Source: Escherichia coli (GTDB lineage: Bacteria; Pseudomonadota; Gammaproteobacteria; Enterobacterales; Enterobacteriaceae). Taken from it: a DNA stretch of 64,000 nt. The DNA is taken from NCBI RefSeq assembly GCF_045037415.1, contig NZ_CP173438.1; one strand, written 5' to 3'. Made by a program: the position numbers and the translations under genes. Below, piece after piece: positions 55,692-56,045 of the stretch. The notes below the pieces were generated by a model that saw nothing but the letters and a program-made list of their open reading frames with translations, had not been told where the DNA came from and ran no database searches. Position 1 is the first letter of the stretch. Each line of letters starts with the position of its first letter.

Positions 55692-55884
55692 TCACAACCC
55701 GAAGATGTTTCTTGCGATTCATCATCGTGTTGCGAAAATTTGAGAGACTCACGAACAACTCTCGTTGTTCAGTGTTTCAATTTTCAGCTTGATCCAGATT
55801 TTTAAAGAGCAAATATCTCAAACATCACCCGAAGATGAGTTTTGAGATATTAAGGCAGGTGACTTTCACTCACAAACCAGCAAG

Positions 55885-55960
55885 TGGCGTCCCCTAGGGG
55901 ATTCGAACCCCTGTTACCGCCGTGAAAGGGCGGTGTCCTGGGCCTCTAGACGAAGGGGAC
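55885..55960 (-). tRNA. tRNA-Glu (UUC) in 16S-23S spacer
   Basis: Minus strand gtccccttcgtctagaggcccaggacaccgccctttcacggcggtaacaggggttcgaatcccctaggggacgcca. Confidence 0.96.
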
Positions 55961-56045
55961 GTATCAGTCTGCTTCGCAAGACGCCTTGCTTTTCACTTTC
56001 TATCAGACAATCTGTGTGAGCACTGCAAAGTACGCTTCTTTAAGG

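What the first reader, a model, noticed from the sequence alone, without database searches (positions are those of the whole stretch)
55692..56045. rrn operon at the hemG-mobB locus carries a tRNA-Glu spacer rather than tRNA-Ile/tRNA-Ala
In K-12 the rrn operon between hemG and mobB (rrnA) has ileT-alaT in the 16S-23S spacer, as I recall. Here the 354-bp spacer contains a single tRNA-Glu(UUC), the spacer type of rrnB/C/E/G. This suggests inter-operon gene conversion or a different operon identity at this locus. The 16S V1 hairpin (ggaagcagcttgctgctt) is also a variant of the K-12 sequence.
Basis: partly seen in the sequence, partly recalled or inferred. Interest (0 to 1): 0.35.

Follow-up and report, generated by a model that had tools for sequence, protein, structure and literature searches.

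The report
ST131 rrnA operon with tRNA-Glu spacer
The ribosomal RNA operon between hemG and mobB in this E. coli ST131 window does carry a tRNA-Glu spacer where K-12 has tRNA-Ile/tRNA-Ala, but this is the normal arrangement of a large uropathogenic lineage, best explained by known recombination between rRNA operons, and an opposite change at rrnB keeps the usual four Glu to three Ile/Ala spacers.

Summary
On the minus strand the window reads hemG, 16S, a 354-bp spacer with one tRNA-Glu(UUC), 23S, 5S, then mobB. K-12 MG1655 has ileT-alaT at this locus.

It is not unusual. The window is 100% identical over 24 kb to ST131 genomes such as JJ1886. About 12-14% of 5,426 complete E. coli genomes carry the Glu spacer here.

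In an ST131 genome surveyed at all seven operons (SA186), rrnB has the Ile/Ala spacer instead. The total stays at 4 Glu and 3 Ile/Ala. All four Glu spacers are identical to each other, as are all three Ile/Ala spacers.

Other Enterobacteriaceae genera have Ile/Ala downstream of hemG, so the Glu state is derived.

Other B2 strains show further arrangements:
- 536 is K-12-like.
- CFT073 has its third Ile/Ala spacer at rrnE.
- NMEC O18 has at least five Glu spacers.

The best explanation is repeated, non-reciprocal gene conversion between rrn operons. Selection on spacer-tRNA gene dosage is inferred, not shown. This is a known mechanism acting on an ordinary operon, so interest is low to modest.

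The parts
57963..58508 (-). hemG, the upstream flank that marks the locus as rrnA
   Evidence: NCBIfam NF008316 equivalog, 334 bits. K-12 has the same neighbour.
57768..57913 (-). rrn promoters. P1: -35 TTGTCA 57913-57908, -10 TATAAT 57891-57886. P2: -35 TTGACT 57795-57790, -10 TATTAT 57773-57768.
   Evidence: Pattern positions, sequence. The upstream 400 nt are closest to K-12 rrnA. Promoter assignment is by consensus and by analogy with K-12, not tested.
57722..57731 (-). leader boxA antitermination motif (TGCTCTTTAACAA)
   Evidence: Sequence match. Function is inferred from established knowledge of rrn antitermination.
56046..57587 (-). 16S rRNA (rrsA), with the V1 hairpin variant at 57513-57496
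   Evidence: Rfam SSU_rRNA_bacteria, 1577.6 bits. V1 differs from K-12 rrsA at positions 80 and 89, a compensatory pair.
55692..56045 (-). 16S-23S spacer of the short (354 bp) Glu type
   Evidence: Boundaries. It matches K-12 rrnE at 351/354 and rrnC at 350/354. It is identical to the SA186 rrnA, rrnC, rrnE and rrnG spacers.
55885..55960 (-). tRNA-Glu(UUC) gene
   Evidence: ARAGORN and Rfam tRNA, 60.1 bits. The three window versus K-12 rrnE spacer differences are at alignment columns 15, 371 and 418; by my reading all lie outside the tRNA gene.
55802..55811 (-). spacer boxA motif (TGCTCTTTAAAAA), upstream of 23S
   Evidence: Sequence match. It lies next to the Rfam StyR-44 hit at 55699-55807, which is the conserved 3' part of the spacer.
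52788..55691 (-). 23S rRNA (rrlA)
   Evidence: Rfam LSU_rRNA_bacteria, 2866.7 bits.
52686..52787 (-). 23S-5S spacer, a 102-nt allele that differs from all seven K-12 operons
   Evidence: Alignment. All seven SA186 operons carry it. It is found at >=99% identity in 672 genomes.
52570..52685 (-). 5S rRNA (rrfA)
   Evidence: Rfam 5S_rRNA, 92.8 bits.
52466..52569 (-). 3' end with a single terminator hairpin (starting at 52555). It lacks the dual terminators and rrA sRNA segment of K-12 rrnA.
   Evidence: Alignment. BLAST finds no match to nt 40-155 of the K-12 post-5S segment. The rrA description comes from PMC8144298.
51938..52465 (+). mobB, the downstream flank that marks the locus as rrnA
   Evidence: NCBIfam NF008021 equivalog, 342.9 bits. 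K-12 has the same neighbour.

Best explanation
This is the rrnA operon of an E. coli ST131 (phylogroup B2) chromosome. Its ancestral Ile/Ala 16S-23S spacer was replaced by the short Glu-type spacer. The replacement came through homologous recombination (gene conversion) with another rrn operon of the same genome, using the flanking 16S and 23S genes as homology arms.

The event is old. It happened in an ancestor shared by a large part of B2 and is now fixed there.

In ST131 a second conversion in the opposite direction, Glu to Ile/Ala at rrnB, restored the usual complement of four tRNA-Glu genes and three tRNA-Ile(GAU)/tRNA-Ala(UGC) gene pairs.

The operon works like any other rrn operon. P1/P2 transcription yields one precursor, from which 16S, tRNA-Glu, 23S and 5S are processed.

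What is shown: the anatomy, the lineage distribution, the derived state, the within-genome identity of spacers, and the conserved count of four Glu spacers.

What is inferred: recombination as the mechanism, the order of events, and selection on tRNA gene dosage as the reason the 4:3 ratio persists.
For: Locus identity:
- The flanks are rrnA on both sides, and the promoter/leader region is closest to K-12 rrnA.

Spacer identity:
- The spacer is 99% identical to the K-12 rrnC and rrnE spacers.
- In SA186 it is identical to the rrnC, rrnE and rrnG spacers. The three Ile/Ala spacers (B, D, H) are also identical to each other, and the 23S genes are nearly identical in all seven operons. This is the signature of concerted evolution.

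Lineage:
- The window is 100% identical over 24 kb to JJ1886, JJ1887 and O25b:H4-ST131.
- JJ1886 has the same rrnA structure.

Full survey of SA186:
- A = Glu, B = Ile/Ala, C = Glu, D = Ile/Ala, E = Glu, G = Glu, H = Ile/Ala.

Population sampling of 5,426 complete genomes:
- rrnA = Glu in 8 of 60 evenly spaced ranks.
- rrnB = Ile/Ala in 7-8 of 60.
- The Glu-spacer core gives 21,630 chromosomal places in 5,393 genomes, a mean of 4.01. Exactly 4 copies were found in 58 of 60 sampled genomes.

Derived state:
- Citrobacter sp. MGH106, two Enterobacter genomes and Buttiauxella agrestis all have tRNA-Ile (and tRNA-Ala where the sequence extends that far) downstream of hemG-16S.
- K-12, O157:H7, O104:H4 and the B2 strain 536 also have Ile/Ala there.

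Stepwise, non-reciprocal changes:
- O18 has Glu at A, B, C, E and G.
- CFT073 has A = Glu, B = Glu, E = Ile/Ala.
- ATCC 25922 has A = Glu, B = Ile/Ala, E = Glu.

Literature:
- Conversions between E. coli rrn operons occur at about 3.6e-4 per genome per generation.
- Conversion of a spacer tRNA region from one operon to another was selected experimentally (Harvey and Hill 1990, as cited in PMC8022953).
- tRNA-Ile and tRNA-Ala of this type are encoded within the rrn spacers, and the tRNAs encoded in rrn operons can limit growth when operons are deleted (PMC4683628).
Against: - Spacers and rRNA genes are fully homogenised within ST131. No donor operon and no conversion-tract endpoints can be identified. 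The recombination event is therefore inferred from its product, not observed.
- Only 64 kb of the source genome is available. The seven-operon survey comes from SA186, whose rrnA 23S differs from the window at 5 positions, not from the window's own genome.
- The population frequencies come from 45-60 evenly spaced rows per search, not from a complete count.
- Co-occurrence of rrnA = Glu with rrnB = Ile/Ala was checked directly in only two genomes, SA186 and ATCC 25922.
- The dosage-selection idea is challenged by O18, which appears viable with at least 5 Glu and at most 2 Ile/Ala spacers.
- Sequence-type and phylogroup labels of the named strains come from my own knowledge or from record titles. 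I did not compute them.
Confidence: 0.85

Rival explanations
1. A single reciprocal exchange swapped the rrnA and rrnB spacers in one event. For example, a double crossover between the two directly repeated operons, or excision of the 129-kb interval as a circle and its reintegration at a different point in the repeat.
For: In ST131 and ATCC 25922 the two loci are exactly exchanged relative to K-12. The estimated numbers of genomes with rrnA = Glu and with rrnB = Ile/Ala fall in the same rank interval, about 645-737.
Against: O18 and CFT073 have rrnA = Glu together with rrnB = Glu. The two changes can therefore be separated. CFT073 has its third Ile/Ala spacer at rrnE. Rare genomes have Ile/Ala at rrnC or rrnG. 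This indicates many independent one-way conversions.
Confidence: 0.15
2. Assembly artefact: near-identical rrn repeats were mis-joined, attaching the wrong spacer to the hemG flank.
For: rrn operons are 5-kb repeats that short-read assemblers cannot resolve. Most draft genomes found in the HemG scan break right after hemG.
Against: The same structure appears in many independently assembled complete genomes. The first five of 60 evenly spaced rows match the hemG-16S-spacer query at 100% identity. The ST131 reference JJ1886 has the same rrnA structure. Related strains share it consistently.
Confidence: 0.01
3. Different operon identity: a chromosomal rearrangement between rrn operons (inversion or translocation) moved a Glu-type operon such as rrnB, rrnC or rrnE to this position.
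For: Rearrangements with endpoints in rrn operons are, to my knowledge, well known in enteric bacteria.
Against: A single crossover would change one flank. Here both flanks (hemG and mobB) and the rrnA-like promoter/leader are kept. rrnB likewise keeps murI and murB. The positions of csrC and spf in the window are consistent with the K-12 order by my recollection of the K-12 map, not a tool comparison.
Confidence: 0.02
4. The Glu spacer at hemG is the ancestral E. coli state, and the K-12-type Ile/Ala spacer is the derived one.
For: B2 is often placed near the base of E. coli phylogenies (my own knowledge). No Escherichia outgroup locus extended far enough to be read.
Against: Four loci from three other Enterobacteriaceae genera have Ile(/Ala) downstream of hemG. 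All sampled non-B2 E. coli and the B2 strain 536 have Ile/Ala.
Confidence: 0.05

Closest known systems
E. coli K-12 rrnA (rrsA-ileT-alaT-rrlA-rrfA)
   Same: It occupies the same chromosomal locus between hemG and mobB. It has the same promoter/leader type, the same gene order 16S-spacer-23S-5S, and no distal tRNA.
   Different: The spacer is the 354-bp Glu type instead of the 446-bp Ile/Ala type. The 23S-5S spacer is a different allele. The 3' end has one terminator and lacks the rrA sRNA segment.
E. coli K-12 rrnC and rrnE spacers (gltU, gltV)
   Same: The 354-bp spacer matches at 350/354 (rrnC) and 351/354 (rrnE). By my reading the rrnE differences lie outside the tRNA-Glu gene. A boxA motif precedes 23S.
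   Different: The flanking genes and promoter region belong to rrnA, not rrnC or rrnE.
Experimentally selected spacer exchange between E. coli rrn operons (Harvey and Hill 1990, as cited in PMC8022953), and measured rrn gene conversions (PMC8022953)
   Same: One operon's spacer type is replaced by another's without any change to the flanks. The 16S and 23S genes serve as homology.
   Different: Here the exchange is a natural, fixed lineage polymorphism. The event itself was not observed, and its tract cannot be mapped.
Salmonella Typhimurium versus E. coli K-12 difference in spacer type at rrnB and rrnD (Lehner, Harvey and Hill 1984; from my own memory, not verified with these tools)
   Same: Two loci carry exchanged spacer types while the total of each type is preserved.
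   Different: That case is between species and involves rrnB and rrnD. This one is within E. coli and involves rrnA and rrnB, or rrnE in CFT073.

Membership tests
rrnA operon (defined by locus) | hemG immediately upstream, transcribed in the same direction | tested here: met
   HemG equivalog at 57963-58508 (minus), 375 nt upstream of 16S. K-12 has the same arrangement.
rrnA operon (defined by locus) | mobB-mobA immediately downstream, convergent | tested here: met
   MobB at 51938-52465 (plus) and MobA at 51372-51956 (plus). K-12 has the same arrangement.
rrnA operon (defined by locus) | promoter and leader sequence of the rrnA type | tested here: met
   The 400 nt upstream give 386 matches to K-12 rrnA, against 362 (rrnB, rrnC), 290 (rrnH) and 278 (rrnE).
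rrnA operon (as in K-12) | spacer with tRNA-Ile(GAU) and tRNA-Ala(UGC) | tested here: not met
   The only tRNA is tRNA-Glu(UUC). K-12 has ileT-alaT.
rrnA operon (as in K-12) | dual terminators enclosing the rrA sRNA gene | tested here: not met
   A segment of about 165 bp is absent. BLAST finds no match to its core.
Glu-type 16S-23S spacer | a single tRNA-Glu(UUC) gene between 16S and 23S | tested here: met
Glu-type 16S-23S spacer | sequence homology along the full length to known Glu spacers | tested here: met
   351/354 to K-12 rrnE and 350/354 to rrnC.
Product of inter-operon gene conversion | converted segment identical to a paralogous copy in the same genome | tested here: met
   In SA186 the rrnA spacer is identical to those of rrnC, rrnE and rrnG. 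The window's own other operons are not available.
Product of inter-operon gene conversion | flanking unique sequence unchanged | tested here: met
Product of inter-operon gene conversion | ancestral state at the locus was the other type | tested here: met
   Ile(/Ala) lies downstream of hemG in Citrobacter, Enterobacter (two genomes) and Buttiauxella, and in non-B2 E. coli and strain 536. No Escherichia outgroup could be read.
Product of inter-operon gene conversion | mappable tract endpoints and an identifiable donor | tested here: inconclusive
   The 16S and 23S genes are nearly identical among the seven SA186 operons, and the candidate donors have identical spacers.
Product of inter-operon gene conversion | RecA-dependent recombination event observed | not testable with these tools
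   This needs an experiment. Supporting rates come from PMC8022953.

The most novel reading that the evidence does not exclude
The number of spacer tRNA genes (4 Glu : 3 Ile/Ala) is under stabilising selection in E. coli. B2 lineages would then record repeated compensatory conversions. An ancestral rrnA Ile/Ala-to-Glu conversion produced a 5:2 genome, a state still seen in NMEC O18. The third Ile/Ala spacer was later regained independently at different loci: rrnB in ST131 and ATCC 25922, rrnE in CFT073, and possibly rrnC or rrnG in rare strains. This would be a natural example of convergent restoration of tRNA gene dosage by gene conversion.
Probability: 0.35. Interest if true: 0.45.

Novelty: already known. 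Interest (0 to 1): 0.22.

Why it matters
There are three practical consequences:
- Operon names carried over from K-12 do not predict spacer tRNA content in other E. coli lineages.
- Typing schemes based on 16S-ITS-23S amplicons or spacer length, and tools that copy K-12 gene names such as ileT, alaT and gltT, can mislabel B2 genomes.
- Short-read assemblies cannot resolve which spacer sits at which locus.

There is also a modest biological point. Spacer types move between loci while the 4:3 total stays almost constant. This suggests that dosage of tRNAs encoded only in rrn operons is constrained while their position is not. That hypothesis can be tested with the complete genomes now available.

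Tried and rejected
- **Donor and tract mapping.** I tried to identify the donor operon and the tract endpoints from 16S, 23S and spacer polymorphisms in SA186, 536 and K-12. Homogenisation within ST131 is complete, so nothing could be mapped.
- **Counting Ile/Ala spacers per genome.** I used a tRNA-Ile to tRNA-Ala query. It picks up one or two extra places per genome, so it could not be used. Only the Glu count is clean.
- **Exact population counts.** I considered chimeric queries that would make the tool's 80%-coverage counter separate spacer types at a given locus. The piece-joining rule and the 1.5-kb 16S gene leave no safe margin, so I kept the estimates from evenly spaced rows.
- **Outgroups.** In the HemG scan of species-representative genomes, most loci were drafts ending just after hemG. 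Only four loci from other genera extended far enough, and none from an Escherichia outgroup.
- **Literature.** Five searches found no paper in the searchable library describing the lineage pattern. The older literature on E. coli spacer diversity and the Salmonella spacer mapping paper are not in that library, so prior description cannot be excluded.
- **Rejected explanations.** Assembly artefact, rearrangement between operons, and Glu as the ancestral state were each considered and rejected (see the rival explanations).

Full report
**1. Observation**

The window carries one rrn operon on the minus strand:
- 16S at 56046-57587
- 23S at 52788-55691
- 5S at 52570-52685 (Rfam)

The interval between 16S and 23S is 55692-56045, 354 bp. 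It holds the only tRNA in the 64-kb window, tRNA-Glu(UUC) at 55885-55960 (ARAGORN; Rfam tRNA at 60.1 bits).

Upstream lie hemG, trkH and yigZ. Downstream lie mobB, mobA, srkA and dsbA. All were identified by NCBIfam equivalog models. The K-12 MG1655 record shows hemG-rrsA-ileT-alaT-rrlA-rrfA-mobB.

The V1 remark is also correct. 16S positions 80 and 89 differ from K-12 rrsA as a compensatory pair.

**2. Which operon is it?**

It is rrnA, not a relocated operon.
- Both unique flanks are those of rrnA.
- The 400 nt upstream of 16S (promoters P1 and P2, leader, boxA) give 386 matches to K-12 rrnA, against at most 362 for any other K-12 operon.
- The spacer matches the short Glu spacers of K-12 rrnE (351/354) and rrnC (350/354). 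It is not the long form found in rrnB (440 bp) or rrnG (431 bp).

**3. Where does the window come from?**

Window 14000-38000 is 100% identical over 24 kb to JJ1886, JJ1887, O25b:H4-ST131 and many other genomes. JJ1886 has hemG-16S-tRNA-Glu-23S-5S-mobB at exactly the coordinates predicted from the window. The window is an ST131 chromosome segment. The phylogroup B2 assignment comes from my own knowledge.

**4. How common is it?**

I searched the segment from hemG through 16S into the spacer against 5,426 complete E. coli genomes and listed 60 evenly spaced ranks.
- 8 of 60 ranks cover the Glu spacer at the hemG locus.
- The rest, including K-12, stop 53 nt after 16S.
- This puts the number of genomes between about 645 and 737, or 12-14%.

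**5. The rest of the genome**

I surveyed all seven operons of SA186. This genome is 100% identical to the window over hemG-16S-spacer, although its rrnA 23S differs from the window at 5 positions.

| Operon | Flanks | Spacer |
|---|---|---|
| rrnA | hemG-mobB | Glu |
| rrnB | murI-murB | Ile/Ala |
| rrnC | yieP-hdfR | Glu |
| rrnD | yrdA-yhdZ | Ile/Ala |
| rrnE | purH-yjaA | Glu |
| rrnG | clpB-kgtP | Glu |
| rrnH | gmhB-dkgB | Ile/Ala |

K-12 has Ile/Ala at A, D and H, and Glu at B, C, E and G. ST131 therefore keeps four Glu and three Ile/Ala spacers, with the types at rrnA and rrnB exchanged.

Across the collection:
- rrnB carries Ile/Ala in 7-8 of 60 evenly spaced ranks, the same interval as rrnA = Glu.
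- The Glu-specific spacer core occurs 21,630 times on the chromosomes of 5,393 genomes, a mean of 4.01.
- It occurs exactly 4 times in 58 of 60 sampled genomes.
- If the 12-14% of genomes with rrnA = Glu all had five Glu spacers, about eight of the 60 would show five. None did.

**6. Homogenisation**

Within SA186:
- the four Glu spacers are identical to each other and to the window;
- the three Ile/Ala spacers are identical to each other;
- the seven 23S genes differ at one position;
- all seven operons carry the same 102-nt 23S-5S spacer allele.

This is strong concerted evolution. It also means that neither the donor nor the tract endpoints can be recovered.

**7. Direction of change**

A scan for HemG relatives in species-representative genomes returned mostly draft contigs that end just after hemG. 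Four loci extend past the 16S: Citrobacter sp. MGH106, Enterobacter cloacae DSM 26481, Enterobacter sp. EA-1 and Buttiauxella agrestis. All four have tRNA-Ile(GAU), followed by tRNA-Ala(UGC) where the sequence continues.

All sampled non-B2 E. coli and strain 536 also have Ile/Ala at this locus. Ile/Ala is therefore ancestral at the hemG locus and Glu is derived. No Escherichia outgroup could be read.

**8. One swap or several conversions?**

Other strains that I know as B2 show that the changes are separable.

| Strain | rrnA | rrnB | Other loci |
|---|---|---|---|
| 536 | Ile/Ala | Glu | not read |
| ATCC 25922 | Glu | Ile/Ala | rrnE = Glu |
| CFT073 | Glu | Glu | rrnE = Ile/Ala |
| NMEC O18 | Glu | Glu | rrnC, rrnE, rrnG = Glu |

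O18 therefore has at least five Glu and at most two Ile/Ala spacers among its seven operons. Rare genomes carry Ile/Ala at rrnC (strain S30) or rrnG (strain M6).

This pattern fits repeated one-way conversions better than one reciprocal rrnA-rrnB exchange. The simplest order is:
1. rrnA converted to Glu in a B2 ancestor, giving a 5:2 genome.
2. A Glu spacer elsewhere later converted back to Ile/Ala.

That order is inferred from five genomes, not from a phylogeny.

**9. Mechanism and its support in the literature**

- Gene conversions among E. coli rrn operons were measured at about 3.6e-4 per genome per generation. Whole-spacer conversions of the 23S-5S region occurred at 3.5e-5 (PMC8022953).
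- The same paper summarises Harvey and Hill (1990), who selected conversions that spread a 16S-23S spacer tRNA from one operon to another.
- tRNA-Ile and tRNA-Ala of this type are encoded within rrn spacers. Slow growth after deleting four operons was relieved by supplying rrn-encoded tRNA genes on a plasmid, not by supplying rRNA (PMC4683628). tRNA-Glu is expressed only from rrn operons (PMC8144298).

These results make dosage selection plausible as the reason the 4:3 ratio persists. That step is still an inference, and O18 shows that 5:2 is viable.

rrnA and rrnB lie about 129 kb apart on the same replichore near oriC in SA186. Exchanging their spacers should therefore change gene dosage very little. 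This last point is also inference.

**10. Comparison with what is known, and novelty**

The operon is a standard rrn operon, and its spacer is a standard Glu spacer. The process invoked has been demonstrated experimentally. The arrangement is already annotated in hundreds of RefSeq genomes.

A difference in spacer type at two loci with the totals preserved is, from my memory, documented between Salmonella Typhimurium and E. coli K-12 (rrnB and rrnD; Lehner et al. 1984). I could not verify this here.

I found no paper in the searchable library that describes the pattern within E. coli. The older literature is not covered there.

I rate the feature as already known. The only mildly new element is the population-level picture of mobile spacer types with a conserved 4:3 total.

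**11. Verdict**

The gene-conversion interpretation is supported, and the alternative of a different operon identity is rejected. This is an ordinary lineage polymorphism of ST131 and part of B2. Interest is low to modest (0.22).

Noticed in passing
window 52686-52787 (minus strand): The 23S-5S spacer is a 102-nt allele that differs from all seven K-12 operons by about 21 mismatches and 10 gap columns. It also differs from the 95-nt allele of strain 536. All seven SA186 operons carry it. It occurs at >=99% identity in 672 of 5,426 genomes, and the five sampled genomes at 100% identity each hold 7 copies.
   Followed up: partly
window 52466-52569 (minus strand): The rrnA 3' end has a single terminator. 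It lacks the segment of about 165 bp that in K-12 rrnA, rrnB and rrnD lies between dual terminators and encodes the sRNAs RrA, RrB and RrF (PMC8144298). BLAST finds no match to the core of that segment in the window or in any B2 rrn locus fetched: SA186 rrnA, B, C, D, E, G and H; 536 rrnA and B; O18 rrnB, C and G; CFT073 rrnA and B; ATCC 25922 rrnA. In K-12 the segment is bracketed by a repeat of the 5S 3' end.
   Followed up: partly
window 57496-57513 (minus strand), 16S V1: The V1 hairpin differs from K-12 rrsA at positions 80 and 89, a compensatory A-U to C-G change. K-12 rrsG already has C80 and G89. SA186 operons differ among themselves at V1 positions 76-93.
   Followed up: yes
window 23S, alignment columns 1219-1230 (within 52788-55691): The window's 23S differs from SA186 rrnA 23S at five positions. 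Four of them (G, C, G, T against T, A, T, A at columns 1219, 1220, 1229 and 1230) match the state in strain 536 and may be paired changes in one helix; pairing was not checked. ST131 genomes therefore still differ from each other in 23S.
   Followed up: no
window 55699-55807 (minus strand): The Rfam family StyR-44 ('Salmonella Typhi npcRNA 44') matches at 122.9 bits. The match is simply the conserved 3' part of the 16S-23S spacer just upstream of 23S.
   Followed up: no
E. coli genome collection: 33 of 5,426 genomes have no match at all to the Glu-spacer core. Strain S3 (NZ_CP010228.1) shows 8 places for the Ile/Ala query against the usual 4. Strain S30 (NZ_CP010231.1), which is 99.9% identical to K-12 at the rrnC flank, has Ile/Ala at rrnC. 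These may be engineered or laboratory-evolved strains, or unusual spacer sets.
   Followed up: no
L024 (NMEC O18, NZ_CP007275.1) 3092-5649: Two frameshifted IS transposase genes (IS110 family and IS1397) lie between kgtP and the 5S end of rrnG in O18.
   Followed up: no
window 5658-5820, 11055-11113, 33202-33270, 35160-35267, 39763-39834, 42088-42341, 43370-43488: Other Rfam matches in the window: three naRNA4 copies, a SECIS_3 element, STnc370, ES222, CsrC and Spot 42. The CsrC and Spot 42 positions fit my recollection of this K-12 region. None was examined.
   Followed up: no
hit H68 (NZ_CM139235.1, strain GIMC1405:EC_Lstone01): The murI-16S-spacer query matches over its full length but at only 95.3% identity, and only tRNA-Ile is annotated. 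This may reflect a low-accuracy assembly rather than real divergence.
   Followed up: no
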